Virus record (IMG/VR): IMGVR_UViG_3300020599_000003
Location: 113,804-177,803 of that record
DNA: 64,000 nt
Reading direction: 5' to 3' (one strand)
DNA from: a virus
A program made the translations under genes and the position numbers. Below, in pieces: positions 24,398 through 51,722 of this stretch (positions within the stretch are counted from its first letter, which is position 1; each line of letters opens with the position of its first letter). The notes beneath the pieces were generated by a model. The model made no database searches and had not been told where the DNA came from. It was given only the letters and a program-made list of their open reading frames with translations.

Positions 24398-24423
24398 AAG
24401 TACTCCTAGTTTGTATGAGGCAT

Positions 24424-29120: not shown

Positions 29121-29128
29121 GATGTGCC

Positions 29129-30127
29129 TTAGACGCGCTTACCGCGTACGAACTTGATGTACTTGAGATTGGCCTGATACGTCTTCGCATCGACCTTGCC
29201 GCCCGCCGCCTGCCATTCGTAGGCCACGCGGTCGCAGATGTCCGAGAACTTGTCCGTGTCCTTGTAGGTGAAGATCTTGGGCGTGCGGCTGAGGCCGTTC
29301 AGCTGGCAGAAGTCGCGGATGAAGTCACGCGTTTCCTGGACGTGGTCCTCGGTGATGCCGGTCACGATGCGCTTGTGGCGACGGAAGATGATGAAGTTGC
29401 CACGCATCTTCTCGTCGCGGGTGAAGCCTTCGATCACACCCGGGAAAAGCTGCATGCACTTCAGCGCATCGTTCGCTGTCAGGAAGTCCGTGCGGCTGTT
29501 GCCCACGCCGGATTCGCGGATAGCCTTGGACGTCGACGGAAACGTGGCAAGTCCGGTATAGACTGCAGCGGACTTGGTCGCCATGAAGTTCTGGATCGGG
29601 ATGGGTTGGTCCACCGTGAACAGGATGCGATTGTGCCAGATATCGCGGGGGCGGCGCGCAGAGAAGCCTGCTGCCGCGCTGCCGAGCTCGTTCTCCAGTA
29701 CCGCCCTGCCGTTGCGCGCATGTCCGAATGTGCTGAGCTGCTTGCGGCAGATGGCGACCATGTTGTAGACCTCGAACATGCGCGGGATCACGTCCAGCAT
29801 GCGGTCCATGAACAGGCCCGGAGCATCCTTCGCCTTGACGTAGCGTCCGGCTTTCTGGTCCCATGCGAACATGTACTGGTCGTCGTCCAGCTGCATGTAG
29901 TGTCCCTTCAGCTTCTCGTAGAAGAAGCGCTTCTTCTTGTAGAGGCAATCCATGTACGGCTCGAAGCGGTTGATGGACCGCACCTTGTTGCCGTACCACG
30001 CGTTCTTGTACTGCTTGTATTCCTCCGGCATGACCCACAAGTCGATGTGCTGCAGGAATTGTTCCGGCATGCTCTCGAACGCGACCATGTTGTTGGCGCG
30101 CCCGTAGGAAGTGACGACGTAGCGCAT
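29129..30127 (-). CDS. GT-A glycosyltransferase, TAGT-like
   Basis: VVTSYGRAN, YMQLDDDQ, DQPI..Q...G. Confidence 0.65.
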   Translation of the reverse strand: MRYVVTSYGRANNMVAFESMPEQFLQHIDLWVMPEEYKQYKNAWYGNKVRSINRFEPYMDCLYKKKRFFYEKLKGHYMQLDDDQYMFAWDQKAGRYVKAKDAPGLFMDRMLDVIPRMFEVYNMVAICRKQLSTFGHARNGRAVLENELGSAAAGFSARRPRDIWHNRILFTVDQPIPIQNFMATKSAAVYTGLATFPSTSKAIRESGVGNSRTDFLTANDALKCMQLFPGVIEGFTRDEKMRGNFIIFRRHKRIVTGITEDHVQETRDFIRDFCQLNGLSRTPKIFTYKDTDKFSDICDRVAYEWQAAGGKVDAKTYQANLKYIKFVRGKRV

Positions 30128-30894
30128 CAGATGAGACCTCCAATCTTCGCAGCGCTACGCCACGAGATACGAGTGTTGGAATCAGGGTGCTGAGCCGACG
30201 GCGGTTTTTCCTTGACCACGTCGGGGTGCAGCTGGATGAGTTGCTTCAGGCAGCGTGCCGCTTCCTCGCGGGTGCGCTCGCCGGACAGGCCACCGTCGCC
30301 TTCAGCGCCGCGCTGTGCCACTACCATATCATATGTCAGAGCAATGCGCCATCCACCCTTGAGCCATTGCAGCGTGTAGTCAATGTCTTCGTAGAAGTGG
30401 ATGCGCCCCCACTCGATAGCTTTGATGGCGGCACGAGAAGCGCCGAATGCAAAACCGAGATGGAAGTTTTCTTTGATCCCACCCTTCTGGGCGAATGCCT
30501 TGGTGCCGAGTCCGATTACAGGATAGTCGCGCACGAGCTTCGGCATCGTCTTCGTCCAGAACTTGCGCGTGGCCGCCGCGTTGGTGGAGGCCACGACGTG
30601 CTTATCCTGCTTGGTGTCGAAGACGTACAGGTAGAGGTCGTCGTCGAACATGAAGCTGAACGGGTATTTGCTCTGCTTCATGATCCACTCGCGCTTCTTG
30701 TGGAGGGTCTTGATGTTGTCCGGCTGCGCCAGCACGTTGACGCCAGGGTAGTTGCTGCGCAGCGCGTCAACCTCGTCACGCGGACACACCAGGGTCACCA
30801 GCGACCGCAGCGGGAGCGGCATACGCTCGACAGTGAGTTGCTTCGTGGTGCGGCCACGGGTTGGGATGAAGATGTGGTAGTTAGGCTTCGACAT
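30127..30894 (-). CDS. GT-A glycosyltransferase, TAGT-like
   Basis: Start MSKPNY at 30894; IFIPTRGR, KREWI, FMFDDDL, YEDIDYTLQ.L..GW, GGLS.ERT. Confidence 0.8.
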   Translation of the reverse strand: MSKPNYHIFIPTRGRTTKQLTVERMPLPLRSLVTLVCPRDEVDALRSNYPGVNVLAQPDNIKTLHKKREWIMKQSKYPFSFMFDDDLYLYVFDTKQDKHVVASTNAAATRKFWTKTMPKLVRDYPVIGLGTKAFAQKGGIKENFHLGFAFGASRAAIKAIEWGRIHFYEDIDYTLQWLKGGWRIALTYDMVVAQRGAEGDGGLSGERTREEAARCLKQLIQLHPDVVKEKPPSAQHPDSNTRISWRSAAKIGGLI

Positions 30895-31642
30895 CGGGGA
30901 GAAGTCCTTGGTACGATCTGAGTTCCCCGGGCGTGCCGAGGCAGTGGAAAGAGGTGCGAGGCACCGACAGAACAGCAACCTCCTGCGCAGCCGTCTTGGA
31001 GAACATGTCCACGAACGTGGCTTCCCGCCCTTCTGGCAGCTTCTCCAGGTACTGCGCAGCGAGAGTCTCGAACTCGGACAACGAGCGGAACCAGTAGATG
31101 CCGCACGCGCCGAGTACATCACCACCAATGGGCAGGTCCGGCTGGCGCTCCCAGGCACGTAGGAGGCGCGTGCGGTCGGCGGACGTGAACAGCTTGGCCT
31201 TGTTGGTGTCGTCCGGGCTGGACTCGCCATAAAAGCCCACGAGGCCACACGTCGTATTGTGACGCTCGAAATACGCTGCGGTCTCGTTCATGGGTTGACG
31301 GATGTACGAGTCGCAATCGTAGAACAGTACCGGGCGCAGTGGATTGATCTCGGGCCATAGGTTAACTGCGTTCAGCGCAGATTCGACGGGGCCGCGTGTG
31401 ATGGCTTCCAGCGCGACGAAGTTCTTGAACGCGCCCGAGCCGAACAGGGTCTTCCCGGATGCCCACGGAGGCAGCGCCCCGTACAGATCAGTGGCTCCAG
31501 GGGAAATGTGCATCATGCTGGAGACGAACATCCACATGGGAAGCTTGCCGTCCACGAGGATGAACGGCTTCGGCACTTCGTATCCAGCGTCGGCAAAGCG
31601 TTGGCCTGCGCCAGCAGCGAGCAGGCAGAGTTGGGTTTTCAT
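30881..31642 (-). CDS. Sugar-phosphate nucleotidyltransferase (capsule-locus BcbG/EcbG-like)
   Basis: LAAGAGQRFADAGYEVPKPFI, TRGPVESAL, YDCDS, CGIYWF, LGTPGEL. Confidence 0.75.
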   Translation of the reverse strand: MKTQLCLLAAGAGQRFADAGYEVPKPFILVDGKLPMWMFVSSMMHISPGATDLYGALPPWASGKTLFGSGAFKNFVALEAITRGPVESALNAVNLWPEINPLRPVLFYDCDSYIRQPMNETAAYFERHNTTCGLVGFYGESSPDDTNKAKLFTSADRTRLLRAWERQPDLPIGGDVLGACGIYWFRSLSEFETLAAQYLEKLPEGREATFVDMFSKTAAQEVAVLSVPRTSFHCLGTPGELRSYQGLLPDVEA

Positions 31643-33084
31643 CAGATTTCCCCGACCAGCTCGTTGGCGAGCCGGATGAATTGGTGTTGGTGGTCGGGCC
31701 GGTCGCTGTGCAGAGGCACCATCGAGTAGAACAGCAGCGCGGTCTGTGCCAGCAGCCATTCGCGGCACACATCGAAGCGCAACCGGATCGACCGCAGGAA
31801 GAAATCGACCAACGTCTGGTTGCGCTCGAACGGCCTATCGGCCATGATATGGTCGTAGCCCACCAACGAGTGGAACAGCTTCGCTAGATCGTAGCGGATG
31901 TCCCCGAACAGCGTCGGCGTGTTGTCGTTGTCAACGCCACGCGGATCGATCAGCACGATGTCGCGCAGGCGATGGTCGTATAGGATATTGCTGAAGCACA
32001 AGTCGCCATGCACCAGATACGAATACCTCCGTGTAGCGTTGCCGACGATCTCACGGCAGTGGTCGATGTTCTGCTGGATCCGCGTGGTCGCCATCCCGTC
32101 GGGGTATTCAGCGAAGCGTGCAAGGGGCTTGTCCTGGAACAGGGCAGTGGACTGCTCGATGGCGGATAGTGGCGCAGGGCCAACGTCCATGGATGCGTCG
32201 AGCCATTTGAAGCAGCGCTCCAGGATGCATTCCCACTCCTGGTCGCGCAGCTTGCCGTGGACGTACATCTCGGATAGCGTAGGCAGTGGGCTGTACTCCA
32301 GCGAGTATTCGCCGTCGAAGCGGCCGGGATTGGTCAGCAGCTTCGGGGCGTAGATTTGCAGAGCGGGCGGCAGGTTAGCGAACCAGTTCAGCTCGCCGAA
32401 GATCTTGTGCTTGGGGCCACGTTTGGTGACTGTCCGATGGTCCACCGATTCCAATGCATTGAAGTTGCGCGTGGTGTGCTTGAGGTAGGCGTGCTTGGAC
32501 GTGAAGTACGTGCTGAGGTGACCGAAGTCCTTCCACGAGTCTGGGGCCACGCGCTCGACATGCAGCGCCCCGAGGAACTTGATGAACTCGGCGCGATCCT
32601 TGAGCGGGCTGTCGTGCAGCTTCTTGACGGTGCTACGGCACGCCGTGAAGTGACCCACGAAAGCGCGCTCGGTGCCAGGCAGGAAATCCCAATGGCGCGT
32701 CGACCCGACGTAGTCGTTCGTGGTGTACACGATGGGGAGTTCACGGCGCAGGAAGCTAGTACGAAGCGTGTCTCCCCAAAGGAAGTGGACGCACGTACTG
32801 TCGTCAATGCGGCAGACCAGTTGACGTATGAGGAAGTTCAGAACCTCATGCAATTCCAGGTCCCGCAGATTGGCGATGAAAGTCACACCCTCAATCTGAG
32901 GCGTGGCAGTGTCGGGCCAAGTCACGATGATCTCGTCCACTTGGTCCCGAGCGGCCTCGATTTGAAGCTGCAAAAGGGTCTTGCCGCCAACAGGTACAGC
33001 GGCGGCAGGAATGGGTCCGAAGAGGAACTGCAACTCCGCATCACACAATGCGGAGCTCAGGATAACGAGGATCTGTTTCTTCAT
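31642..33084 (-). CDS. Nucleotidyltransferase-like/APH-type kinase fusion (capsule-locus BcbE/EcbE-like)
   Basis: N-terminal ELQFLFGPIP...PVGGKTL; DFGHLSTYF...TRNFN.L; HGDLCFSNILYD, IDPRG, GDIRYDLAKL.HS. Confidence 0.75.
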   Translation of the reverse strand: MKKQILVILSSALCDAELQFLFGPIPAAAVPVGGKTLLQLQIEAARDQVDEIIVTWPDTATPQIEGVTFIANLRDLELHEVLNFLIRQLVCRIDDSTCVHFLWGDTLRTSFLRRELPIVYTTNDYVGSTRHWDFLPGTERAFVGHFTACRSTVKKLHDSPLKDRAEFIKFLGALHVERVAPDSWKDFGHLSTYFTSKHAYLKHTTRNFNALESVDHRTVTKRGPKHKIFGELNWFANLPPALQIYAPKLLTNPGRFDGEYSLEYSPLPTLSEMYVHGKLRDQEWECILERCFKWLDASMDVGPAPLSAIEQSTALFQDKPLARFAEYPDGMATTRIQQNIDHCREIVGNATRRYSYLVHGDLCFSNILYDHRLRDIVLIDPRGVDNDNTPTLFGDIRYDLAKLFHSLVGYDHIMADRPFERNQTLVDFFLRSIRLRFDVCREWLLAQTALLFYSMVPLHSDRPDHQHQFIRLANELVGEI

Positions 33085-34166
33085 TGGTTCGTCCGGTAAT
33101 CATCACCAGTATACGCTTTGGTCCAGGAGACCACCACTTCTTGACGCACTTCTGACGTACTGTATTTACGGTCTTGGACCCTGACTAGACCGGGATGTAT
33201 CTTGGCGAGTCTGAACGCCTCCGCGTTCGAGGCCTCCATTGTTCGTTCGGTACTGACTCCCCCTTCTGCACCAAAATCCAGCGGGTTGATGACGAGGTTT
33301 TGCATGATCGCATTGGGGTAGCCCAGCTTCAGCAGATGCAGCGTGACGTTGAAGTCCTCGCGGAAGCGCACTTCGTCGAAGCGGATGCCGTTGTCCAGCA
33401 GCGTGCGCCGGTGATGACCGATGGCGTGCATGGCGCGGCCCACGATCTTAAGCTCCTTGCGCACCGCGTTGTTCATCATGCGACTGGAGATGCAGGTATG
33501 GGCGTACCCATCCTCCACCATGAGCTTTCGTAGAGCTTTCCAGGCTGCGGTACGCTGCTTATCGTCAAATCCATCTTTGAATAGGAATGTGACGCCCTTC
33601 TCCATCGCTTCATCAGTAACACGCCATTGGCCCGACTTCTCCGTACCGTGCCATTCGCGCATACTCATCGGACACCGCCGGAAGAAGTACATGTCGTCGT
33701 CCATCTGGAAGATGTTCTCGCTGCGCACGTTCTCTATAATCCATTGGCGTTTTTTGGCTATTCCATCTACAGAGGGGTCATCAACAGCCCATACCAAGTC
33801 GTGCTTGTAATAGCGACGGATTTCCTTAGCCTCATCCCAATCGCTGGTCAGCACGAGGGTGTTGGCGCGGATTTCGGGCGGCAGCTCCAGCAGAGTGATC
33901 TGGCGGTGCGGACGCCGGTACGTCGGGATGACTATCTGGAAGTCCTTATCAGCCACGGGTGGGCGCTTGCCAGCGGGCTTGAGAACAATGCGTGGCTTCA
34001 CATCAATGAACTGCGCACGGTTCGAGTTGACTCGCGATTCCTTCGGCTCTTTGGCTTTCGCTGCCTTGGGTTTCGCGGTGGACTTGGCACCCTTCTTGGT
34101 CGGTGCCTTGGGAGGAGCTTCGGCTGGCTGGGGCCGATTGGCGAGGATCCGAGAAAGTATGCCCAT
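33081..34166 (-). CDS. GT-A glycosyltransferase, TAGT-like, with a basic N-terminal extension
   Basis: IVIPTYRRPHRQIT, KRQWI, FQMDDDM, REDFNVTLHLLKLGYPN, GAEGGVSTERT. Confidence 0.82.
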   Translation of the reverse strand: MGILSRILANRPQPAEAPPKAPTKKGAKSTAKPKAAKAKEPKESRVNSNRAQFIDVKPRIVLKPAGKRPPVADKDFQIVIPTYRRPHRQITLLELPPEIRANTLVLTSDWDEAKEIRRYYKHDLVWAVDDPSVDGIAKKRQWIIENVRSENIFQMDDDMYFFRRCPMSMREWHGTEKSGQWRVTDEAMEKGVTFLFKDGFDDKQRTAAWKALRKLMVEDGYAHTCISSRMMNNAVRKELKIVGRAMHAIGHHRRTLLDNGIRFDEVRFREDFNVTLHLLKLGYPNAIMQNLVINPLDFGAEGGVSTERTMEASNAEAFRLAKIHPGLVRVQDRKYSTSEVRQEVVVSWTKAYTGDDYRTNQ

Positions 34167-34172
34167 GAGATA

Positions 34173-34682
34173 TCACCCGTATTGGAGAGCGCAGACGCCT
34201 AAGCGCCGGTACATTTCGATCTGGTGGTCGGAGTCGTCCACCGCGAAGAGGATGTCTAGATTGTTGGCCCGCAGCATTTCCACGAATTCCTGCTTGAACT
34301 TGGTGGAGGCTGAGGCCCCGTGCCCGTAAATGCTCACATCCTTGAAGTGCGTTGCCATGCGGCCGGACTGTAGAGCCTCATCGGCCAGACTACTGCTCAG
34401 GCACGACTGGAAGATGCGGCGCTGGTCTGGAGTGTTGGGGCGGGCTGACAAGAACACGATCTGCACTGGCGAGTACCAGAGCATATCGACAACTCGCAGG
34501 AACGGCAGCGGAGTGTCCAGGGCTGCGAGATTGTTGTACTCACGGCGGTCTTCAGGTGTGGAGTTGGGCTTGGTAATCAGGTGGAGGCGGTGGCGGTGAT
34601 CGAACAGAACACCGTCCACGTCCACAAGCACGATGGGCAGCCGGTTGCCACGCGCCCAGTCCAGTGAGAATTCGCCGATCAT
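34173..34682 (-). CDS. HAD phosphatase (PNKP/PseT C-terminal-like)
   Basis: VLVDVDGVL, FLSARP, FK, AVDDS..I.MY..LGV. Confidence 0.8.
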   Translation of the reverse strand: MIGEFSLDWARGNRLPIVLVDVDGVLFDHRHRLHLITKPNSTPEDRREYNNLAALDTPLPFLRVVDMLWYSPVQIVFLSARPNTPDQRRIFQSCLSSSLADEALQSGRMATHFKDVSIYGHGASASTKFKQEFVEMLRANNLDILFAVDDSDHQIEMYRRLGVCALQYG

Positions 34683-35446
34683 GACAGCGAGAAGATGACG
34701 GTGCCATCTTCGTTGGTCGTGAACTGTGGGAATCCTTCGACGCCGACGTTCCACTTCTTGACGTTGTGCTCAATGGTGCTGGCCGGGTACATGTCCCCGT
34801 TCAGGTGGAAGCCATCGACCAATGTTTCAGCCATGTTGTCGGCCTGGATGATGCGCCAGTGCTTCGTGTTGCCGTCACTGAGTGTGTTGTAGCGGATGTA
34901 GAATCGCTTGTAACCAGCACGGCTGCGGAGGAGCTTGTCGCAGACGGTGGCCCAATCGTCAAGTTGCTCGGCACTCTGCCAACCCTGGATGACGAGGTCG
35001 GCGACGCCAGGACCCGCCAGGGTATTGGAGGTGAGGGGCTTCTCGAACAACATATTGGTGTCTGCGAAGCGACCCTCATCGATGGTGTCCATCCAGATTT
35101 TATGGATGACCAGATTGGAGTTCTCGGTGTTGGCGGCAGCATGGAACGTGCGGCGAGTTTCCAGCGTAGGGTTCACGAAGTCCACGACCACGAACGGCGC
35201 GGTCAGCGACGTGTAGCCAGCGAGGCTGCCCAGGATACGTGCTTGCTCCAGGCGATCCTCAGGCGTGAAGCCCAGGTGTTTGGTAATCGTGCTACGTGCC
35301 CAGTCCGCGTTGATGTGGACCGCACCCAAGAGTTTGCTGAGCTTCTTGGCGAGCGTGGTTTTGCCGGAGCCGGGCAAGCCCATGATGTTGATGATGCGGT
35401 GGGTGCGCGGCGATGACGTTGTTTCGATCTTGGCTTGCTGGGTCAT
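34679..35446 (-). CDS. cysC: Adenylyl-sulfate (APS) kinase-like P-loop kinase with a C-terminal extension
   Basis: IMGLPGSGKTTLA, INADWAR, GFTPEDRLEQAR, VVVDFVNPT..TR, GRFADTN..FEKP. Confidence 0.75.
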   Translation of the reverse strand: MTQQAKIETTSSPRTHRIINIMGLPGSGKTTLAKKLSKLLGAVHINADWARSTITKHLGFTPEDRLEQARILGSLAGYTSLTAPFVVVDFVNPTLETRRTFHAAANTENSNLVIHKIWMDTIDEGRFADTNMLFEKPLTSNTLAGPGVADLVIQGWQSAEQLDDWATVCDKLLRSRAGYKRFYIRYNTLSDGNTKHWRIIQADNMAETLVDGFHLNGDMYPASTIEHNVKKWNVGVEGFPQFTTNEDGTVIFSLS

Positions 35447-35447
35447 A

Positions 35448-35999
35448 TCAGTACTCCATGGAATGTTCACTGATGGTGTCGTGGCATCGCAGAACGCAGA
35501 TGCCTTCTTCCTTGAACATGTTGATGTTCTTGATGCTGTCGTCGATGGCTGCGACAATGTCCAGACCGGCAGCCTGGATTTTCTTCACGATGCGACGTTT
35601 GTAGTCCACCGAGTTTTCTTCGTGGGGTGCGGTGTCCTTGAATTGGTAGTACCAATCTTCGTAGCCGGGGATGAACGGCTTAATCGCGTTCTCGAACGTG
35701 CTGATTTGGAACTGGTCCTCCGGGCGAGCCGTCAGGAAGATGAGCGTGTACACCACGGACAGACGGCGCAACATCCTGCACAGCGGGAGAGGCTCGTCCT
35801 CCGGGGCCTCCCGCTCGTAAGCTTCCCAGTCCGCACCCGTGGTCTTGTACTCGATGCGACCGTCGCGGATTTCGCAGATGTGATGCAGGCGCGGCAGGTT
35901 GTTCAGGAGAACACCGTCCACGTCAACGATGAGGACCTGCGAATCTTTCCGCAGGTTGCGGAGGCCAGCAGCCAGACTGTGATCGAAATCTGCCATCAA
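35448..35999 (-). CDS. HAD phosphatase (PNKP/PseT C-terminal-like)
   Basis: LIVDVDGVL, FLTARPE, YK, AIDDS..NI.MF. Confidence 0.8.
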   Translation of the reverse strand: MMADFDHSLAAGLRNLRKDSQVLIVDVDGVLLNNLPRLHHICEIRDGRIEYKTTGADWEAYEREAPEDEPLPLCRMLRRLSVVYTLIFLTARPEDQFQISTFENAIKPFIPGYEDWYYQFKDTAPHEENSVDYKRRIVKKIQAAGLDIVAAIDDSIKNINMFKEEGICVLRCHDTISEHSMEY

Positions 36000-45414: not shown

Positions 45415-45672
45415 TTACTGCTTTGGCAGGAAGTCCAGGTTCCAGCGAATGCTGCGGCTGGCCCAGATATTGACGCGAGTTTGTAGGTTGTCGGGGCGGC
45501 AATGCACGCCAAACCCGGCGATGCGGCCCGCGCTATGCTCGTTGCGCAGGAAGCGGGTAAGGCCCGTGACGATGTCAGCGTAGGCATCGGATGGACGCTC
45601 GTTGTTTTGGACCGCCTGCGCATAGAGCGTCTGGAGCTGGCCCTGCAAAGCAGATGGGTAGTCGGCTGTCAT
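45415..45672 (-). CDS. Hypothetical protein
   Basis: 85 aa; overlaps the helicase stop. Confidence 0.6.
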   Translation of the reverse strand: MTADYPSALQGQLQTLYAQAVQNNERPSDAYADIVTGLTRFLRNEHSAGRIAGFGVHCRPDNLQTRVNIWASRSIRWNLDFLPKQ

Positions 45673-46901
45673 ATGGCGAAGATCAAGTTATTTGATGGGC
45701 GTGTGCAGGCCGAGTAGCGCCAGCGCGCCGCGTTCTCGCGGGCGATGTACGACTCGTCATACACAAGAACGTTCTTGAAGGTGGAACCTTGTGCCTTGTG
45801 CGCAGTCAGGACGTGGCCGAAATCGAAGGAGGACGTGGCCGCGAGTTGCTTCCAGTGCAGCGTGTCGGGGTCGCCAGTGAAGAAATCCACCGGCACCACG
45901 ACATTGACTTCGTTGGACTCATTGCCCTGTTCACGCAAGCGCATGGAGACGACCTGTACCGTGACTTGCTCGCCTTCGGGACCAGGATCGTCCGGACCCC
46001 AGACGGACTTGTGCTCCGTCACCTCGCCTGTGTATCGGTTGGTGCGGTAGTAGAAGCACTTGTGGGTGAAGGGGCCGGTGAGGTCCAGCACTTCCCACAT
46101 CTGCCCGTTGATGAGGCCACGTGAGCGCTCGTTCTTCAGGCAGATGAGCAGTTCACCCTTTTCGGGATAGGGGCTCTTGTACTCGAATACGTCGCGGGCA
46201 CGTAGATTGAACTCACGGCGCGTGGAGTTCCTTCCGACAATGATCTTGGACTCGCCTCGGTGATCGAGGATGAGTTGATCTAAGCGACGGCGCACGCCAG
46301 CTTTCGTCACTACACGGGAGTCGCCGTAGCGGCCAACTCGCAAGCGACGACCTTCGCGGATTTCTTTCGACATCCAGATGACGGGATTGTCTTTGGCCTG
46401 CCGATGGATTTCCGTGAGCTGGTAGTCAGGCGTACAGTTGTCGTATGGCGAGTCTCCCTTGAGGGCGGGCAGTTGGAAGGGGTCGCCCATGACCAACATC
46501 GGGATGCCAAAACTGGACAGCGCGTCATCCAGTTCTTTGTCTGCCATACCACACTCGTCCAGATTGATAAGGTCCGGAGGAGACTCCAGGCTACTGCGCA
46601 ACCGATATCCCAGAAGCTGACCCTCTTCGGAGATGTCGGGCGCATAGCAGAAGGAGTGGATTGTCATCGAATCCAGACCCTTCTTGGTGAGCTCTAGCGC
46701 CGCCTTGCCTGTGAACGCTACACCTTGTGTAGCGCACCACGAGGCGACCTCTACAGCCAGGGTGGATTTCCCGGTGCCAGCGAAGCCGAATAGAATGAAC
46801 TTCTGCTTGTGGCCTGGGTCTTGCAGCCACTTGTAGATGAGGTCGAGAGCTTCAGCTTGCTGGCCCTCGAATTGAGGCGGCTCAGGCGATTGAGTCACCA
46901 T
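45669..46901 (-). CDS. SF1B helicase (Dda/RecD2-like)
   Basis: GFAGTGKS, DECGM, GDPFQLP, LTEIHRQA, LTAHKAQGS, YSACTR. Confidence 0.9.
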   Translation of the reverse strand: MVTQSPEPPQFEGQQAEALDLIYKWLQDPGHKQKFILFGFAGTGKSTLAVEVASWCATQGVAFTGKAALELTKKGLDSMTIHSFCYAPDISEEGQLLGYRLRSSLESPPDLINLDECGMADKELDDALSSFGIPMLVMGDPFQLPALKGDSPYDNCTPDYQLTEIHRQAKDNPVIWMSKEIREGRRLRVGRYGDSRVVTKAGVRRRLDQLILDHRGESKIIVGRNSTRREFNLRARDVFEYKSPYPEKGELLICLKNERSRGLINGQMWEVLDLTGPFTHKCFYYRTNRYTGEVTEHKSVWGPDDPGPEGEQVTVQVVSMRLREQGNESNEVNVVVPVDFFTGDPDTLHWKQLAATSSFDFGHVLTAHKAQGSTFKNVLVYDESYIARENAARWRYSACTRPSNNLIFAI

Positions 46902-46914
46902 GGGAGGATTCTCC

Positions 46915-48210
46915 TCAGTTGATGAAGCCCGCCGCGACAGTGTCGCCAGACTTCTTGTCAATCAGAATAAACTTGCGGCCCGGTGCGCTCTTGTAGTCGC
47001 ACTCGGGCACCAGCAGCTCGTTTTCCAACTCCAGGGCCGCCTGCGCGATGTCGTTTGTCATCAGCGAGTAGTTCTGCGTATCCACGAGCGCACCGGAGGT
47101 AGGATCAAGCAGCGACGCGCCGTACATAATCGATGCACCAGTCGAGCCCAGCTCGGTACGAATGATGTAGCCCGGATGGTCATGGACTGCGAGACTGTCG
47201 GACATCCACACCAGCGTAACCTGAAGTCGATTGTGTGGGTGCATCGGATTGTCGGCAGAGGCGATCACGTAGCCCGACTGCATCGTGGATGTCAGCCCCA
47301 CGATACCGATCTCGATGGCATCGCCTTGCACCACTTCCCCCACGTCGCGACCCAGGATGCCGAGGTAATCCACGTGCGACGTGATGACGCTCCCATTGGA
47401 ATGGCTCGGGTTGGCCTGACGATCGAACCACGGCGTGTAGACCTGCACGCGCTCACCAAGTCGCAATACACCGCTGAGGATATTGCCAACGGCACGGTTA
47501 CGCAGCTCCGACGAATGGCGGCACGGAGCCTGGATGGCGACGGTAACGCCACCTTCCGAGATGTTGTGCTGGTCGTCGGCCATGCGAGTCACGAGCTCCA
47601 TTAGTGAAGGTCGGAAGGGGTTCCCTTCCTCGCGAGCCTTGGACACGTTCTCACCGGTGAGGGCGGATATAGCGATCGTGGCGTCCTGCAAGCCTCCGGT
47701 GAATTCGTCGATCACTTCTTCGACTTGGCCGAGCCGATCGTAATCCCAAGCGAGCGTGTCGGCTTTGTTGATGACGAAGACTGTGGCAAGGCCGAAGAGG
47801 GAGCAGATGCGATAGTGGAGTTTGGTTTGAGATTCGAGTTCTTTGTGCCCGATGACGTAGTTCGGGTCGACGAGGATGAGGGCGATATCCGAGTTGGATG
47901 CGCCAGTTGCCATGTTCCGGGTGTATTCGGCGTGGCCGGGGCAGTCGGCGAGGATGAACTTGTGGGTCGGGGTCGAGAAATATCGATACGCCACGTCGAT
48001 CGTGATGCCACGTTCGCGCTCCTCGGTGAGACCGTCGGTGAACATGGCGAGATTGAGTTCGCCACGCGAGAACTGAGAATTGGTGACTGCGGCGATCTGG
48101 TCTTCCATGAGCGCCTTGGAGTCGAGCATCAGCCGTCCGATCAAGGTGGACTTACCATTGTCGACGGAGCCGCACGTGAGGATGCGGACGAGTTTCTTTT
48201 CTTGGTTCAT
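46915..48210 (-). CDS. cysN: Sulfate adenylyltransferase GTPase subunit 1
   Basis: TCGSVDNGKSTLIGRL, EERERGITIDVAYRYFST, ADCPGHAEYTRNMATGAS, FILIDK.SG.TVAAG. Confidence 0.95.
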   Translation of the reverse strand: MNQEKKLVRILTCGSVDNGKSTLIGRLMLDSKALMEDQIAAVTNSQFSRGELNLAMFTDGLTEERERGITIDVAYRYFSTPTHKFILADCPGHAEYTRNMATGASNSDIALILVDPNYVIGHKELESQTKLHYRICSLFGLATVFVINKADTLAWDYDRLGQVEEVIDEFTGGLQDATIAISALTGENVSKAREEGNPFRPSLMELVTRMADDQHNISEGGVTVAIQAPCRHSSELRNRAVGNILSGVLRLGERVQVYTPWFDRQANPSHSNGSVITSHVDYLGILGRDVGEVVQGDAIEIGIVGLTSTMQSGYVIASADNPMHPHNRLQVTLVWMSDSLAVHDHPGYIIRTELGSTGASIMYGASLLDPTSGALVDTQNYSLMTNDIAQAALELENELLVPECDYKSAPGRKFILIDKKSGDTVAAGFIN

Positions 48211-48241
48211 CAGACGTCCTTGTAGATGACGCAGGCTTGCA

Positions 48242-49159
48242 TCAGAAGTATCCCTGTTTCTTGCGCTGCTCCATGGCAGCTTCGGACGCGGCATCGTCGG
48301 CACGGGTTGCTCCGCGCTCGGAGATGGTCGTGACCATGGTTTCCTGAATGATCTTGGCAACCGTGTCCGCGTCCGAAGCCACGGGGCAGGTGCAAGTAAT
48401 GTCGCCCACGGTGCGGAAGCGGACCTTCTCACGCACGACCATTTCACCAACGCGAGACGGCATCAGGTTCGGGAAGTATGGGATCAGGCGCCTGCCGCGC
48501 AGGATCACGTTGCGCTCGTGCGCGTAGTAGATCGACGGCAGTTCGATGTTCTCGCGCTCGATATAGCGCCACACGTCGAGCTCGGTCCAGTTCGAGATGG
48601 GGAACACACGGAAGTTGTCGCCCTGCTTCGTGTCCTCACCGAACGTGGTGTTGTAGATACCCCAGAGCTCGGGGCGTTGATGTGCCGGGTCCCAGCCACC
48701 GAACTGACGACGCACAGAGAACACCCGCTCCTTGGCGCGAGCCTTCTCTTCGTCGCGGCGTGCGCCACCAATCAGAGTCGTGAACGACCCCTGTTCGATT
48801 GCGCGGCGCAAGGTCACGGACTGCGCCGAATTGCGGGACTGCCCCTCGGCGACTTCGACAGCGCCGGAGTCGATGTCATGCTGTACGTAATACGGCACAT
48901 GCTCGAACGGAGTAGTGGCAGCAGTACGTTCGATGAACGCTTCAACTTCCGGGAAGTTGTGGCCGGTGTCGATGTTTACGAGCTTGACGTGGTTGTAGTG
49001 GCACGACTCTAGCGCCCTCATGGCGATATGGCGTACCACGGCGCTGTCCTTGCCTCCGGAGAACAATAAGGCCACGCGGCCTGTGGAAGAGAACACGGCG
49101 TCGCGGATGATAGAGGCGGCTTCCGCTTCAAGCCGGTCGAGATCAGTGCGATGGGTCAT
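48242..49159 (-). CDS. cysD: Sulfate adenylyltransferase subunit 2
   Basis: LFSGGKDS, DTGHNFPEV, GGARRDEEKARAKERVFS, RVFPISNWTELDVW, FRTVGD.TCT, MEQRKKQGYF. Confidence 0.97.
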   Translation of the reverse strand: MTHRTDLDRLEAEAASIIRDAVFSSTGRVALLFSGGKDSAVVRHIAMRALESCHYNHVKLVNIDTGHNFPEVEAFIERTAATTPFEHVPYYVQHDIDSGAVEVAEGQSRNSAQSVTLRRAIEQGSFTTLIGGARRDEEKARAKERVFSVRRQFGGWDPAHQRPELWGIYNTTFGEDTKQGDNFRVFPISNWTELDVWRYIERENIELPSIYYAHERNVILRGRRLIPYFPNLMPSRVGEMVVREKVRFRTVGDITCTCPVASDADTVAKIIQETMVTTISERGATRADDAASEAAMEQRKKQGYF

Positions 49160-49161
49160 GG

Positions 49162-49500
49162 TTAACGGTTCTTGGGTTGTTCGTCCTCGTACACAAGGGC
49201 ACGAGGCTTGTGGATGTTGCCGAACTTGTCGGTGACGGAGTGAGCTTCGTTCCCGTTGAAGGTCAAGTCCCAGACGACAGTACCAGCCTCTTCCCCATCG
49301 CCAGTGAGAAGGCGAGGTACTGCCCACGCGGCAGGCCCGAGAGGGGGCCGTTGGCGCTGTACAGCCTTGGAGGGGTGCGTCAGGTGCTTGTCGCCCATCT
49401 CGGCACGGCGCTGCGCAAACTTGTCCATGAGAGATTTCCCTGCATCGCTGAGGTCGGTGAAGACGCGCTGCATCGGACGCACGGCGTAGCGTTGGCTCAT
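49162..49500 (-). CDS. Hypothetical protein
   Basis: 112 aa; RBS GGAG; immediately upstream of cysD. Confidence 0.65.
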   Translation of the reverse strand: MSQRYAVRPMQRVFTDLSDAGKSLMDKFAQRRAEMGDKHLTHPSKAVQRQRPPLGPAAWAVPRLLTGDGEEAGTVVWDLTFNGNEAHSVTDKFGNIHKPRALVYEDEQPKNR

Positions 49501-49627: not shown

Positions 49628-51520
49628 TTACGGAACCTGCACATCAGGCGGTCCGTACTTGGCGGATTCTGCTTGTGCAGCGCGGCCCCAGATGAGGCGA
49701 CGTTCTTCCTCCAGCTTCTGTATGCGCTCCTTGTCGTCTACCTTGCGGGCACGACTGATCGCAGTCTTGATGGCATCGAGGCGCTTTCGATCCTTCGTGG
49801 TCAGGGAACTTGATCCAGGTTTCCTGTTGCCGCCGAATCTGGTCGTAGAGAACAGGCTGAATGAGTGGGATTTCATGAACGATGTGTCGATGGTAGGCAA
49901 ATCGTACATGGCTTCCTTCAGATACTCAGCCATGCGCAACGTTGGCACCATGACGAGCATCGTGGATCGTGACCGATGATTGCGAACATTGCCACGCCCC
50001 AAGCATTGAAGAGCATTGGCAACAGAGTAGTCAAAGTTCGAGTCATATCCACAGCCAGTGCGCTGATTGACTAGACCTTTGGTCAGCGTCTCCAGGACTT
50101 GACGAACTTTCGGATCAGCATTGACCGCGGCCAGATAGAAGATAGTGTTCGCGCTGATCCACTCGTTCATGCCGCGTGCTTGCGCGTGTTCCAGGTACAC
50201 CGTGTCACTGCTTCCCGACCAGCGCCGGTACGCCTTTTCCTCTTCGCCATAATTGGTGAAGACAAGTGGCCGCTCCGCACGGAAAGCATCCGCATTGCCG
50301 CGTACACTAGGTTTGCGACGGATCAGATTCTGCATCCACATATTGCGAGCTGAGACAGAGGCTTCGCACAACCATTCAACGATGTTGGAATGGATTCCGT
50401 GCTTCTTGCGTAGTACATGCTCGTGTACATTTGGAGATTGAATTGCCTCCAACTCACGCAATCTTGCCAATTGTGCCTTGAACCATTCCCTCGGGACGTC
50501 CGGAAACTTTTCCCCGATAAAGCCACGGGACAGGGATGTGATGGACAGCATGTCCGCATCATTGTTGAGTAGTGGGATCAAGACGACTCGCTTGTAGCGT
50601 GCTTGGGCTTGGACCCGCCGAATAGCCGCTTCTGGCAGGTACTTGGCTAGGAAAGTCTCCGTGTAATCGATCAGTCGTATGCGTGCGCCTTGGGACTGAT
50701 CACGCAACAGCAAGAAGAACATCTGGCTACGATCAAAATTGGCACTCAACACGAATGCATCGCGGAAGCCTTCGAACGGACGGAAGGGGATTTCTACTTG
50801 GACGACTTGGTACGTACCATCGACGTGCTTCGACAGTGCGCCATATCCAGATACGCGAGGTGGCGACCCGTCAGGCCCAGGTGAGATGCGGCAGTGGAAC
50901 TTCCACAGACGATCGAACGTGCGGGCATCGTTAACCCGTGCAATTTCAGTCCGAGCCTCTCGCGAGGTCATGGGGTTTGGGAACACCTTCCTAATGTCGG
51001 AACTAAGGAAGACGGTGCGAAACATCTTGTCGAATAGGCGCTTATCGTGTGAGGAGAAATTGACCTTCGACACTGCTGCAACCCACTGGCGGTCTTCATC
51101 AAAGATGACGGTCGTCTTCGGGAACTCAGGGTGACTACGCAACTCCAGGAATGAATGGTGCGTGATGAAGATCACACGCTTACTAGAGTCATTAAGCGCA
51201 GCCATGATGCGAGAGTTGATGTCCTGAGCGTGGGCACCGATCCTCCCGGAGTATATGCAAGCAGTACAACTCTCAAGGTGACTATGACCTGCACCATAGA
51301 TCTTGTCCATGAGGCCCTTGTAAGTCTGTAGTAGGAGGGTGATAGTCGGGGCCACATACAGGATGCGCGTACCGGGGTCTCTATCAGTACCCAGGCTGAG
51401 GAGATGTTGATACATGAAATTGATCGCAGCCTGCGTCTTCCCTACACCGGGCATGGACTGGACGTATTTGATGTCTACAACTCTGTGCGCTGGCTTCTTG
51501 TGGGATGTCTTGGTCCTCAT
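49628..51520 (-). CDS. SF2 (DExD-like) helicase, possibly origin-binding
   Basis: SMPGVGKT, YVAPT..L, FITH, VIFDED, LSAN, Q.LGRGNVR; visibly more AT-rich; start MRTKTS with RBS GGAG. Confidence 0.65.
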   Translation of the reverse strand: MRTKTSHKKPAHRVVDIKYVQSMPGVGKTQAAINFMYQHLLSLGTDRDPGTRILYVAPTITLLLQTYKGLMDKIYGAGHSHLESCTACIYSGRIGAHAQDINSRIMAALNDSSKRVIFITHHSFLELRSHPEFPKTTVIFDEDRQWVAAVSKVNFSSHDKRLFDKMFRTVFLSSDIRKVFPNPMTSREARTEIARVNDARTFDRLWKFHCRISPGPDGSPPRVSGYGALSKHVDGTYQVVQVEIPFRPFEGFRDAFVLSANFDRSQMFFLLLRDQSQGARIRLIDYTETFLAKYLPEAAIRRVQAQARYKRVVLIPLLNNDADMLSITSLSRGFIGEKFPDVPREWFKAQLARLRELEAIQSPNVHEHVLRKKHGIHSNIVEWLCEASVSARNMWMQNLIRRKPSVRGNADAFRAERPLVFTNYGEEEKAYRRWSGSSDTVYLEHAQARGMNEWISANTIFYLAAVNADPKVRQVLETLTKGLVNQRTGCGYDSNFDYSVANALQCLGRGNVRNHRSRSTMLVMVPTLRMAEYLKEAMYDLPTIDTSFMKSHSFSLFSTTRFGGNRKPGSSSLTTKDRKRLDAIKTAISRARKVDDKERIQKLEEERRLIWGRAAQAESAKYGPPDVQVP

Positions 51521-51722
51521 TGTTACTCCATGGGTCTGGACGCTATTGAGTACTTTACTACGTTCAAAACCCATCAATTTCAGTGTTACTTTTTGCCCGT
51601 TATTAAGAGGGTTGGTAACGGCCAGGCATGGACACAAGGTCCAAATCGGTTACCAAACTTAGGAAATGGCTCGTGCCGCGCTCCCATTAGGGGCGGCTCC
51701 TTCGTCGCTCGCCCCTCACCAT

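What the first reader, a model, noticed from the sequence alone, without database searches (positions are those of the whole stretch)
46915..49159. Phage encodes a complete PAPS supply (CysD + CysN + APS kinase) with no reductive sulfur genes
Full-length cysD and cysN sit between two helicase genes, 11 kb from the APS kinase at 34679-35446. No cysH, cysIJ or cysK is seen in this window. Making PAPS without reducing it points to a sulfate donor for sulfotransfer rather than an auxiliary cysteine pathway. The only PAPS consumers visible are the two sulfotransferases in the DNA-modification operon.
Basis: partly seen in the sequence, partly recalled or inferred. Interest (0 to 1): 0.85.

Follow-up and report, generated by a model that had tools for sequence, protein, structure and literature searches.

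The report
Phage-encoded sulfate activation for sulfotransferases
A large uncultured relative of Ralstonia phage phiRSL1 carries its own sulfate-activating enzyme (CysD/CysN) and no sulfate-reducing genes, most likely to supply the sulfate donor PAPS to two sulfotransferases in its DNA-base-modification gene cluster, which would make possible a sulfated DNA base, a chemistry I found no report of.

Summary
cysD (48242-49159) and cysN (46915-48210) are intact, full-length and under purifying selection. They lie between a DEAD-box and an SF1 helicase gene in a 177.7-kb circularly assembled phage genome. The whole genome has no cysH, sulfite reductase or cysK.

The "APS kinase" (34679-35446) is divergent. 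It passes Pfam's cut-off but not NCBIfam's, and it carries an extra C-terminal domain. APS kinases are nevertheless its best match by both sequence and fold.

In all 12 related phage contexts I examined, this kinase sits within a few genes of a sulfotransferase. That includes a sister subclade where the thymidine cassette is replaced by a 7-deazaguanine cassette and the neighbour is a previously unrecognised Stf0-like sulfotransferase.

cysDN is confined to one sub-lineage (five phage CysD sequences, one acquisition from a Burkholderiales bacterium). Most sulfotransferase-bearing relatives, including cultured phiRSL1, lack it. So cysDN is an accessory booster, not a core part.

Two unrelated viral contigs have cysDN directly beside sulfotransferases.

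A PAPS supply for sulfotransfer is the best reading (about 0.6). A cysteine-supply role through host APS reductase is not excluded.

This scan has noted phage PAPS-plus-sulfotransferase cassettes on other DNA before. The link to a DNA-modification cluster is what differs here.

The parts
48242..49159 (-). cysD, ATP sulfurylase small (PP-loop) subunit, 305 aa
   Evidence: NF003587 353 bits (cut-off 195). 1ZUN_A E 2.7e-54 over the full length. SGGKDS PP-loop present. dN/dS 0.14-0.24 against phage orthologues.
46915..48210 (-). cysN, GTPase subunit of ATP sulfurylase, 431 aa, with no fused APS-kinase domain
   Evidence: TIGR02034 256 bits (below the 336 cut-off). 1ZUN_B E 2.6e-51 over the full length. 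G1, G3 and G4 motifs intact. A 31-nt spacer with AAGGA lies after the cysD stop. dN/dS 0.24-0.37.
49162..49500 (-). Conserved 112-aa ORF of unknown function just upstream of cysD (stop, 2 nt, ATG)
   Evidence: 49-51% identical orthologues lie in the same place in two other cysDN-bearing phage contigs. Not found in G001, G002 or the 45-kb stretch of phiRSL1 that was held.
49628..51637 (-). DEAD/ResIII-type helicase, upstream flank
   Evidence: PF00270 2e-7. The same neighbour occurs in L020, L127 and L128.
45669..46901 (-). SF1 (Dda/UvrD-like) helicase, downstream flank
   Evidence: PF13604 1.2e-16. GGAG lies before the ATG at 46901.
34679..35446 (-). Divergent APS-kinase-like P-loop kinase (residues 1-175) with an extra beta-rich C-terminal domain (about 180-255)
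   Evidence: PF01583 39.6 bits. At E<0.01, 18 of the 20 distinct PDB sequences matched are APS kinases, the other two matching only the P-loop stretch (best 2yvu, 1.8e-11). AF2 pLDDT 89.7. Foldseek top hit is the human PAPSS1 APS-kinase domain at 3.2e-9. Family-invariant NAD-x-x-R, LGF..(E)DR, DFVxP and GRFxDTN motifs.
35448..35999 (-). HAD phosphatase (PNKP 3'-phosphatase type, DVDGV), 1 nt upstream of the kinase start
   Evidence: PF03767 9e-7. phrog_415 1.9e-20. Junction TGA-T-ATG.
34173..34682 (-). Second HAD_PNKP-type phosphatase; its ATG overlaps the kinase stop codon (ATGA)
   Evidence: PF25109 8.7e-8. phrog_415 7.6e-19. Junction read directly.
28332..29120 (-). Sulfotransferase ST1 (Sulfotransfer_2), 66% identical to phiRSL1 ORF232
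   Evidence: PF03567 70.3 bits. HNPKAAGTS (5'-phosphosulfate loop) and VRNPYDR..S (3'-phosphate motif) present.
27520..28335 (-). Sulfotransferase ST2 (Sulfotransfer_2), ATGA-coupled to ST1
   Evidence: PF03567 36.3 bits. HNPKAGGTS and VRDPLDR..S present. Junction read directly.
23348..34166 (-). Context: thymidine-hypermodification operon. It holds a TS-like dUMP hydroxymethylase (23348-24439), 5-hmdU DNA kinase (24424-25350), GalE-type epimerase (25320-26312), TAGT-type glycosyltransferases (26309-27529, 29129-30127, 30127-31248, 33081-34166) and a nucleotidyltransferase/kinase (30881-33084)
   Evidence: Pfam and PHROG hits. The order is syntenic with phiRSL1 ORF230-238.

Best explanation
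The phage makes its own activated sulfate. CysD/CysN (GTP-driven ATP sulfurylase) converts sulfate and ATP to APS. The divergent APS-kinase-like enzyme phosphorylates APS at the 3'-OH to give PAPS. The two Sulfotransfer_2 enzymes, which keep the 3'-phosphate-binding motif and so should need PAPS, not APS, use it within the 5-hydroxymethyl-dU glycosylation operon. The most likely acceptor is a sugar attached to the modified thymidine in phage DNA. The two PNKP-type HAD phosphatases that are translationally coupled to the kinase may remove the inhibitory by-product PAP. The core module of the lineage is kinase plus sulfotransferase. cysDN is a later add-on in one sub-lineage that raises APS supply above what the host provides. 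Shown: gene identities, motifs, folds, synteny, selection and co-occurrence. Inferred: every enzyme activity, the acceptor, and the role of the HADs.
For: 1. cysD and cysN are full-length, carry their catalytic motifs and align end to end with the 1ZUN complex. dN/dS is 0.14-0.37.
2. The five phage CysD sequences are monophyletic (SH-aLRT 100, stem 0.95), nested in Burkholderiales CysD. In the four contexts read the gene lies next to the 596-691-aa helicase-position gene. This indicates one acquisition that was then retained.
3. The closed genome has no cysH, NIR_SIR or PALP.
4. For the kinase, APS kinases are the best matches in sequence and structure. The residues aligned to the APS-contacting R of DGDxxR, F of GF and R of EDR are invariant in 39 homologues.
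5. The kinase lies within six genes or fewer of a sulfotransferase in all 12 contexts: this phage, ERR3928896, SRR34572457, G001, phiRSL1, and the contigs of P0012, P0013, P0021 and P0024. In the 7-deazaguanine subclade (G002, L126, P0020 contig) its immediate neighbour X is Stf0-like. Evidence for X: ESM Atlas score 0.97; AF2 pLDDT 90.8; VIA Z 10.7 to 1tex with the nine best hits all sulfotransferase-fold proteins that bind PAPS/PAP; Foldseek 2.4e-5; N-terminal QRTGSKSL.
6. The nearest out-group kinases are fused to an HxGH nucleotidyltransferase.
7. Only 25 of 81 sampled Burkholderiaceae genomes have a canonical APS kinase, so many candidate hosts would not supply PAPS.
8. Unrelated viral contigs show Sulfotransfer_1-CysD-CysN/CysC (L010) and Sulfotransfer_3-CysD-CysN (L008).
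9. The genome has 73,823 T, so sulfating every modified T would be a large sulfur demand. That last step is inference.
Against: 1. cysDN lies 11.5 kb from the kinase and 18 kb from the sulfotransferases, in the replication module and not in the modification operon.
2. phiRSL1, G001 and G002 carry kinase plus sulfotransferase with no cysD and no Sat-type sulfurylase anywhere in the record. The system therefore works without phage cysDN.
3. The kinase scores 37.9 bits against the TIGR00455 cut-off of 138.7. It has NAD in place of DGD and a different lid (GRFxDTN in place of KGLYK..FTG..PYE).
4. The flanking HADs match 'polynucleotide kinase' PHROGs, which allows a PNKP-like reading of the trio.
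5. The host is unknown.
6. There is no expression or biochemical evidence.
Confidence: 0.6

Rival explanations
1. cysDN is an ordinary auxiliary metabolic gene pair. It raises APS for the host's own assimilatory pathway (APS reductase, sulfite reductase, CysK) so that cysteine and methionine do not limit virion protein synthesis. The kinase/sulfotransferase module simply draws on the same pool or on host APS. This is not exclusive of the best explanation, because APS is a branch point.
For: cysDN sits apart from the modification operon, and most sulfotransferase-bearing relatives lack it. Phages commonly carry a single bottleneck step of a host pathway, and viral cysD/cysN are listed as sulfur AMGs in virome papers. 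The nearest cellular CysD are from Burkholderiales, where CysH is reported to use APS directly (from my knowledge, not tested here). One other viral cysDN locus (L006) lies in a replication module with no sulfotransferase in the stretch available.
Against: In this lineage cysDN is seen only in phages that also have kinase plus sulfotransferase where the context is known. No reductive gene is present, not even cysH. Two of four other viral cysDN loci examined lie directly beside sulfotransferases.
Confidence: 0.2
2. The 'APS kinase' is not an APS kinase. With its two PNKP-type HAD phosphatases it could be a split polynucleotide kinase/phosphatase, or a kinase for modified (deoxy)nucleotides such as 5-hmdUMP or a deazaguanine nucleotide. 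The phage then makes APS but not PAPS, and the sulfotransferases depend on host PAPS.
For: The kinase scores far below NCBIfam's APS-kinase cut-off. AAA_33 scores almost as well as APS_kinase. PHROG names it only 'kinase', and both HADs match 'polynucleotide kinase'. The canonical lid is missing and the first Asp of DGD is Asn. The gene travels with two chemically different base-modification cassettes, each of which needs nucleotide-level steps.
Against: No polynucleotide kinase or dNMP kinase appears among the PDB sequence hits at E<1; gluconate kinases are the only non-APS-kinase entries among the top fold hits. The APS-kinase-specific GF[ST]xEDR motif is invariant. The putative substrate-site residues are the same in the hmdU and deazaguanine subclades, which argues for one common substrate. 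The element that both cassettes share besides the kinase and a PNKP-type HAD phosphatase is a sulfotransferase.
Confidence: 0.15
3. PAPS is made and used, but the acceptor is not DNA. It could be a virion or host-surface glycan. Alternatively, sulfate may serve only as a transient leaving group during base modification, so that mature DNA carries no sulfate.
For: Sulfotransfer_2 enzymes are typically carbohydrate sulfotransferases. In L008 the sulfotransferase-cysDN unit lies beside a tail-fibre-type (Mtd_N) gene and glycosyltransferases. Earlier notes of this scan read other phage cassettes as glycan sulfation. Sulfation used as activation for elimination is known from the curacin and olefin-synthase sulfotransferase domains, which appear among the fold hits of X.
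Against: Here the sulfotransferases are ATGA-coupled inside an operon with a dUMP-hydroxymethylase homologue, a 5-hmdU DNA kinase and TAGT-type DNA glycosyltransferases. In the sister subclade the sulfotransferase lies between QueD and QueC.
Confidence: 0.25

Closest known systems
CysD/CysN ATP sulfurylase with CysC APS kinase (E. coli; P. syringae complex 1ZUN)
   Same: The two-subunit, GTPase-coupled sulfate adenylyltransferase has all motifs and a full-length alignment. A kinase of the APS-kinase fold follows in the pathway.
   Different: It is encoded by a phage with no cysH, cysIJ or cysK. The kinase is unfused, divergent (NAD-x-x-R, GRFxDTN lid, extra C-terminal beta domain) and encoded 11.5 kb away. 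CysN scores below the NCBIfam cut-offs.
Rhizobial NodP/NodQ + NodH (Nod-factor sulfation) and mycobacterial CysD/CysNC + Stf0 (sulfolipid)
   Same: A dedicated sulfate-activation set supplies PAPS to a carbohydrate-type sulfotransferase rather than to cysteine synthesis. Stf0 is the best structural match of the sister subclade's sulfotransferase X.
   Different: Those are cellular systems with glycolipid or oligosaccharide acceptors. Here the genes are viral, and the sulfotransferases lie inside DNA-base-modification operons.
Phage thymidine hypermodification via 5-hmdU DNA kinase (phages SP10, PhiW-14, ViI and M6, recalled from memory) and TET/JBP-associated glycosyltransferases
   Same: The same backbone is present: a dUMP-hydroxymethylase homologue, a 5-hmdU DNA kinase (PF18723) and TAGT glycosyltransferases (PF20691).
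   Different: I found no described system that includes sulfotransferases or a PAPS supply (literature searches found none).
Ralstonia phage phiRSL1 ORF230-238
   Same: The cluster is syntenic: TS homologue, ORF231, sulfotransferase (66% identical to ST1), glycosyltransferases (63-71%), nucleotidyltransferases and 'APS kinase' (48%).
   Different: phiRSL1 has one sulfotransferase and no cysDN. The GenBank annotation names the genes, but I found no paper that analyses the pathway or the DNA chemistry.
Viral cysD/cysN reported as sulfur auxiliary metabolic genes in viromes
   Same: Phage-borne cysDN.
   Different: Those genes are usually read as assimilatory helpers. Here, and in L008 and L010, the context points to sulfotransfer.

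Membership tests
CysD (sulfate adenylyltransferase subunit 2) | PP-loop ATP pyrophosphatase motif SGGKDS and a score above the curated family cut-off | tested here: met
   SGGKDS is present. NF003587 scores 353 bits against a cut-off of 195. TIGR02039 (309.7 < 396.6) and NF009214 (360 < 413) are not reached.
CysD (sulfate adenylyltransferase subunit 2) | Full-length homology to a solved CysD and adjacency to cysN | tested here: met
   1ZUN_A E 2.7e-54, residues 5-305 against 26-325. cysN starts 31 nt downstream.
CysD/CysN | GTP-stimulated ATP sulfurylase activity | not testable with these tools
   Needs an enzyme assay or complementation of E. coli cysD/cysN mutants.
CysN (GTPase subunit) | G1, G3 and G4 GTPase motifs plus EF-Tu-like domains II and III | tested here: met
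   GSVDNGKST, DCPGH and NKAD are present. 1ZUN_B aligns over residues 3-430. GTP-eEF1A_C scores 26.2 bits, just under its cut-off of 27.
CysN (GTPase subunit) | Score above the NCBIfam curated cut-off | tested here: not met
   TIGR02034 256 < 336.1 and NF003478 259 < 590. It still scores far above EF-1alpha (156). It is a divergent member.
APS kinase (CysC; PF01583 / TIGR00455) | Score above the family cut-off | tested here: inconclusive
   The Pfam gathering score is met (39.6 > 21.1). The TIGR00455 equivalog cut-off is not (37.9 < 138.7). Only profile positions 4-109 of 152 match.
APS kinase (CysC; PF01583 / TIGR00455) | P-loop, D-G-D-x-x-R, G-F-[ST]-x-E-D-R and F-I-S-P substrate motifs | tested here: inconclusive
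   GLPGSGKTT, LGFTPEDR and DFVNP are present and family-invariant. DGD is replaced by an invariant NAD, so the second Asp and the Arg are kept.
APS kinase (CysC; PF01583 / TIGR00455) | Canonical lid (KGLYK...FTG...PYE) | tested here: not met
   It is replaced by an invariant GRFxDTN...P segment, with an extra C-terminal beta domain.
APS kinase (CysC; PF01583 / TIGR00455) | APS-kinase fold | tested here: met
   AF2 pLDDT 89.7. Foldseek's top hits are the APS-kinase domains of PAPSS1/2, P. chrysogenum, M. tuberculosis CysC and Arabidopsis (best 3.2e-9), with gluconate kinase interleaved.
PAPS-dependent sulfotransferase (Sulfotransfer_2, PF03567) | Family score, a 5'-phosphosulfate-binding loop and a 3'-phosphate-binding motif | tested here: met
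   ST1 scores 70.3 and ST2 36.3 bits (cut-off 22). HNPK[AV][AG]GTS and VR[ND]PxxR..S are invariant in 8 phage homologues.
Assimilatory sulfate-reduction gene set (cysH, cysIJ, cysK) | Presence of PAPS/APS reductase, sulfite reductase or O-acetylserine sulfhydrylase in the phage genome | tested here: not met
   The only PF01507 hit is cysD. No PF01077 or PF00291 hit occurs in the closed 177.7-kb record, and controls were positive.
NodPQ-NodH-type dedicated sulfation cassette | ATP sulfurylase, APS kinase and sulfotransferase encoded together in one operon | tested here: not met
   All three functions are present and co-oriented, but cysDN lies 11.5 kb from the kinase and 18 kb from the sulfotransferases, with the replication genes between them. 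The system works like such a cassette but is not organised as one.
T4-type polynucleotide kinase/phosphatase (rival for the HAD-kinase-HAD trio) | The kinase domain is related to Pnk kinases | tested here: inconclusive
   No Pnk or Pnkp kinase appears among the PDB sequence hits at E<1. phrog_505 'polynucleotide kinase' matches only the P-loop (25 bits). The HADs do match PNKP-type phosphatases.

The most novel reading that the evidence does not exclude
phiRSL1-lineage phages carry a portable 'APS kinase + sulfotransferase (+ 3'-phosphatase)' module that plugs into two different DNA-base-modification cassettes: glycosylated 5-hydroxymethyl-dU and 7-deazaguanine. In one sub-lineage it is backed by phage cysDN. 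The product would be a sulfate ester on a hypermodified DNA base, a DNA modification I found no report of. A phage would then rewire sulfate activation for genome protection and not for nutrition.
Probability: 0.35. Interest if true: 0.9.

Novelty: new variant of a known kind. Interest (0 to 1): 0.66.

Why it matters
If the reading is right, viral cysD/cysN genes that virome studies count as sulfur-assimilation helpers may instead, at least in part, feed sulfotransferases. Sulfation would then join glycosylation, amination and deazapurine substitution among the chemistries phages use to modify their DNA against restriction and CRISPR. The idea is directly testable because phiRSL1, a cultured phage of Ralstonia solanacearum, carries the same kinase-sulfotransferase-glycosyltransferase-hmdU cluster. 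The divergent kinase family and the Stf0-like family X are also unannotated enzyme families with clear assays.

Tried and rejected
1. Megablast of the cysDN region against 50,697 phage records found no match. Relatives had to be reached through proteins.
2. I considered that cysDN is a recent, functionless capture of host DNA. I rejected this because the phage clade is monophyletic on a long stem, synteny is conserved across the four contexts read, and dN/dS is 0.14-0.37.
3. I considered that the CysD-like protein is a DndC-type or other PP-loop enzyme. I rejected this on the NF003587 score, the full-length 1ZUN_A alignment and the adjacent CysN.
4. I considered that G002 and its subclade (kinase inside a 7-deazaguanine cluster, no Sulfotransfer_2) disprove the kinase-sulfotransferase link. 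This reversed when the unannotated neighbour X turned out to be sulfotransferase-like.
5. Supporting searches for X that gave nothing: Pfam (only Sulfotransfer_4 at E 0.073), a profile search of the PDB by sequence, and hhalign against the phage Sulfotransfer_2 family (probability 0.1). X is therefore not a Sulfotransfer_2 relative at the sequence level.
6. A profile of the phage Sulfotransfer_2 proteins against PDB sequences gave no hits.
7. No Sat-type ATP sulfurylase is present in G000, G001, G002 or phiRSL1.
8. Literature searches for sulfotransferase together with DNA hypermodification, 5-hmdU DNA kinase, 5-hydroxymethyluracil or phiRSL1 returned nothing relevant.
9. L007's cysDN lies beside an integrase and secreted Bacteroidota-type proteins, so it is probably host flank and was not counted as phage evidence.
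10. I did not run a complex prediction for CysD-CysN.
Full report
**What is there**

The window is the last 64 kb of a 177,803-base IMG/VR virus record. The first 127 bases of the record repeat at its end, so it is a closed assembly of 177,676 bp at 58.5% GC.

- cysD, 48242-49159, 305 aa.
- cysN, 46915-48210, 431 aa, 31 nt downstream behind an AAGGA.

CysD passes the NCBIfam subfamily model NF003587 (353 bits, cut-off 195). It keeps the SGGKDS PP-loop and aligns end to end with CysD of the solved P. syringae CysD-CysN complex (1ZUN_A, E 2.7e-54).

CysN is more divergent. TIGR02034 gives 256 bits, below its cut-off of 336. It is nevertheless clearly CysN and not a translation factor: 178 bits to 1ZUN_B against 102 to EF-1alpha. 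Its G1, G3 and G4 motifs are intact.

The gene order is tightly packed: DEAD-type helicase (49628-51637), a conserved 112-aa ORF, cysD, cysN, then an SF1 helicase (45669-46901). DNA polymerase A and primase lie further downstream.

**No reductive pathway**

In the whole closed genome the only PAPS_reduct-family hit is cysD. There is no sulfite/nitrite reductase domain and no PALP enzyme, so no cysK. All three searches gave hits in 12 to 14 of 14 control genomes. There is no Sat-type sulfurylase either.

The genome has exactly two Sulfotransfer_2 genes, at 28332-29120 and 27520-28335, joined by an ATGA overlap. Nothing matches Sulfotransfer_1, Sulfotransfer_3 or family X described below. Both sulfotransferases keep the 5'-phosphosulfate loop (HNPKxxGTS) and the 3'-phosphate motif (VRxPxxR..S). 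I therefore infer that they need PAPS and not APS.

They sit inside an operon with:
- a thymidylate-synthase homologue;
- a 5-hmdU DNA kinase;
- a GalE-type epimerase;
- four TAGT-type glycosyltransferases;
- nucleotidyltransferase/kinase proteins.

**The kinase**

It passes Pfam's APS_kinase gathering score (39.6 against 21.1). It scores only 37.9 bits against NCBIfam's cut-off of 138.7, and only the first two thirds of the profile match.

Evidence in its favour:
- At E<0.01, 18 of the 20 distinct PDB sequences it matches are APS kinases; the other two match only the P-loop stretch. The best is 2yvu at 1.8e-11.
- An AlphaFold model (pLDDT 89.7) finds APS-kinase domains first, led by human PAPSS1 at 3.2e-9, with gluconate kinase interleaved.
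- The P-loop, the D-x-x-R, the APS-kinase-typical LGF[ST]xEDR and DFVxP are invariant in 39 homologues.

Evidence against:
- DGD is NAD.
- The canonical lid is replaced by GRFxDTN.
- A beta-rich domain of about 75 residues is appended.

The gene is translationally coupled on both sides to PNKP-type HAD phosphatases: a 1-nt spacer upstream and an ATGA overlap downstream, and both HADs carry DVDGV. This allows two readings of the phosphatases. They could be PAP 3'-phosphatases in a CysQ-like role, or the trio could be a split polynucleotide kinase/phosphatase.

**Relatives**

The phage belongs to the lineage of Ralstonia phage phiRSL1. phiRSL1 ORF230-238 is syntenic with the window's operon. It comprises a TS homologue, ORF231, a sulfotransferase 66% identical to ST1, glycosyltransferases at 63-71%, nucleotidyltransferases, and an annotated APS kinase at 48%.

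I collected 12 genomic contexts of the kinase.

- Nine contexts have the thymidine-type cassette. They are this phage, Logan contigs ERR3928896_1754 and SRR34572457_17372, IMG/VR record G001, phiRSL1, and the contigs of P0012, P0013, P0021 and P0024. In all nine the kinase opens a cassette containing a Sulfotransfer_2 gene. In ERR3928896 the two genes are directly adjacent.
- Three contexts (G002, L126 and the P0020 contig) looked like a counter-example. There the kinase lies inside a 7-deazaguanine cluster (QueD, kinase, X, phosphoribosyltransferase, QueC, QueE, FolE, HAD) with no Sulfotransfer_2.

The unannotated neighbour X starts MKVHILSxQRTGSKSL. Several results point to a sulfotransferase:
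- It lands in Stf0/Sulfotransfer_3 viral clusters in the ESM Atlas (score 0.97).
- It folds with pLDDT 90.8.
- Its best solved matches are M. smegmatis Stf0 (Foldseek 2.4e-5; VIA Z 10.7, rmsd 3.9, 198 residues aligned).
- The nine best VIA hits are all sulfotransferase-fold proteins that bind PAPS/PAP, ahead of P-loop kinases.

Sequence-level support for X is thin: Pfam gives only Sulfotransfer_4 at E 0.073, and hhalign to the Sulfotransfer_2 phage family finds nothing. I rate X as probably a sulfotransferase.

If so, the kinase is paired with a sulfotransferase in every context, across two different base chemistries. This is the strongest argument that the kinase makes PAPS.

A further hint comes from the nearest out-group of the kinase domain, which is 45-57% identical. 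Those proteins are fused to a small HxGH nucleotidyltransferase. Earlier notes of this scan read that enzyme as a candidate mini ATP sulfurylase. That is a lead and not evidence.

**Where cysDN fits**

Phage CysD sequences at 99, 76, 75, 69 and 67% identity form one clade (SH-aLRT 100) on a long stem of 0.95 substitutions per site. The clade is nested among Burkholderiales CysD, and the best cellular identity is 57-59% to Burkholderia and Paraburkholderia.

In the four contexts read, the gene sits next to the gene in the DEAD-helicase position (596-691 aa). In three of them it is preceded by the same small ORF.

dN/dS against orthologues:

| Gene | dN/dS |
|---|---|
| cysD | 0.14-0.24 |
| cysN | 0.24-0.37 |
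| polymerase A | 0.12 |
| SF1 helicase | 0.09 |

So cysDN was acquired once, has been kept, and is under constraint, though more relaxed than the replication core.

The ERR3928896 phage (polymerase 85% identical) has cysDN plus kinase plus sulfotransferase. Its sugar genes have been swapped for a heptose-type set, so the sulfur genes persist while the sugar chemistry changes.

However, phiRSL1, G001 and G002 have the kinase and a sulfotransferase with no CysD domain anywhere in the record. cysDN is therefore dispensable for the system. It is best seen as a booster of APS supply.

**Support from outside the lineage**

Of four other IMG/VR loci with cysD:
- L010 reads Sulfotransfer_1, ORF, CysD, CysN-CysC fusion, TauE.
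- L008 reads tail-fibre-type gene, Sulfotransfer_3, CysD, CysN, glycosyltransferase.
- L006 has cysDN in a polymerase/helicase module with no sulfotransferase in the stretch held.
- L007 looks like host flank beside an integrase.

In a sample of 81 genomes of the GTDB family that contains Burkholderia, only 25 have a canonical APS kinase at E<=1e-20. Many candidate hosts would thus provide APS but not PAPS, which would explain why the kinase is the constant partner of the sulfotransferases. That explanation is inference.

The genome contains 73,823 thymidines. If most were sulfated, a burst of a hundred genomes would need several million sulfate groups. This is a rough, inferred argument for extra ATP sulfurylase.

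**Weighing**

The best explanation (confidence about 0.6) is a phage PAPS supply for its sulfotransferases, with DNA-linked sugar as the most likely acceptor. The rivals are:
- a non-APS substrate for the kinase;
- a non-DNA or transient use of sulfate.

I found no paper describing a sulfated DNA base, a phage PAPS pathway tied to DNA modification, or any analysis of the phiRSL1 cluster. The library searched does not cover subscription journals.

The scan itself has already noted phage PAPS-plus-sulfotransferase cassettes in unrelated gut and T4-like phages. The general idea is therefore not unique to this window. What is specific here is the tie to base-modification operons, the divergent kinase family, and a cultured relative on which the chemistry can be tested.

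Noticed in passing
L015:10674-11540 (G002); L126:10687-11571: A sister subclade of phiRSL1-like phages has the same APS-kinase-like gene inside a 7-deazaguanine cluster (QueD, kinase, X, phosphoribosyltransferase, QueC, 480-aa unknown, QueE, FolE, HAD). X is an unannotated Stf0-like sulfotransferase family with 26 representatives at E<=1e-3 among 1.8 billion proteins. This suggests a sulfated deazapurine derivative or a sulfation-activated step.
   Followed up: partly
proteins P0039-P0120 (alignment A1): The nearest out-group of the kinase domain (45-57% identity) is a family of about 250 aa, abundant in metagenomes. In it the APS-kinase-like domain is fused to a small HxGH/ISxTxxR nucleotidyltransferase (GRYQPWHEGH motif; PF01467 on some members). 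This is a possible miniature PAPS synthase.
   Followed up: no
L022:10001-18800 (Logan ERR3928896_1754): A relative with 85% identical polymerase keeps cysDN, kinase, sulfotransferase and 5-hmdU kinase. It replaces the GalE/nucleotidyltransferase sugar genes with a heptose-type set (SIS isomerase, PfkB kinase, CTP_transf_like). Its thymidylate-synthase homologue is interrupted by an intein (682 aa).
   Followed up: no
L021:10881-11801 against L022: In SRR34572457 a GIY-YIG/NUMOD3 homing endonuclease gene is inserted exactly between the kinase and the sulfotransferase. The two genes are adjacent in the otherwise near-identical ERR3928896 contig.
   Followed up: no
window 49162-49500 (-): A 112-aa ORF of unknown function, abutting the cysD start, is conserved (49-51% identity) only in cysDN-bearing phages. 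It may belong to the acquired cassette.
   Followed up: partly
window 34173-35999 (-): The HAD-kinase-HAD trio is translationally coupled (TGA-T-ATG and ATGA). In relatives one PNKP-type HAD closes the far end of the modification cassette instead. The kinase and a HAD thus bracket a variable cassette in both subclades.
   Followed up: partly
window 34679-35220 (-), kinase residues about 180-255: The kinase has a C-terminal all-beta domain with its own invariant residues (R185, N187, T188, W197, R198, E207, K231, N233). No fold match was sought for it alone, and its function is unknown.
   Followed up: no
L043:10001-14359 (ENA contig, 214 kb): One relative has kinase, UDP-galactopyranose mutase, sulfotransferase and TAGT but no 5-hmdU kinase or TS homologue in the next 10 kb. 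The sulfation and glycosylation genes can therefore occur apart from the hmdU genes.
   Followed up: no
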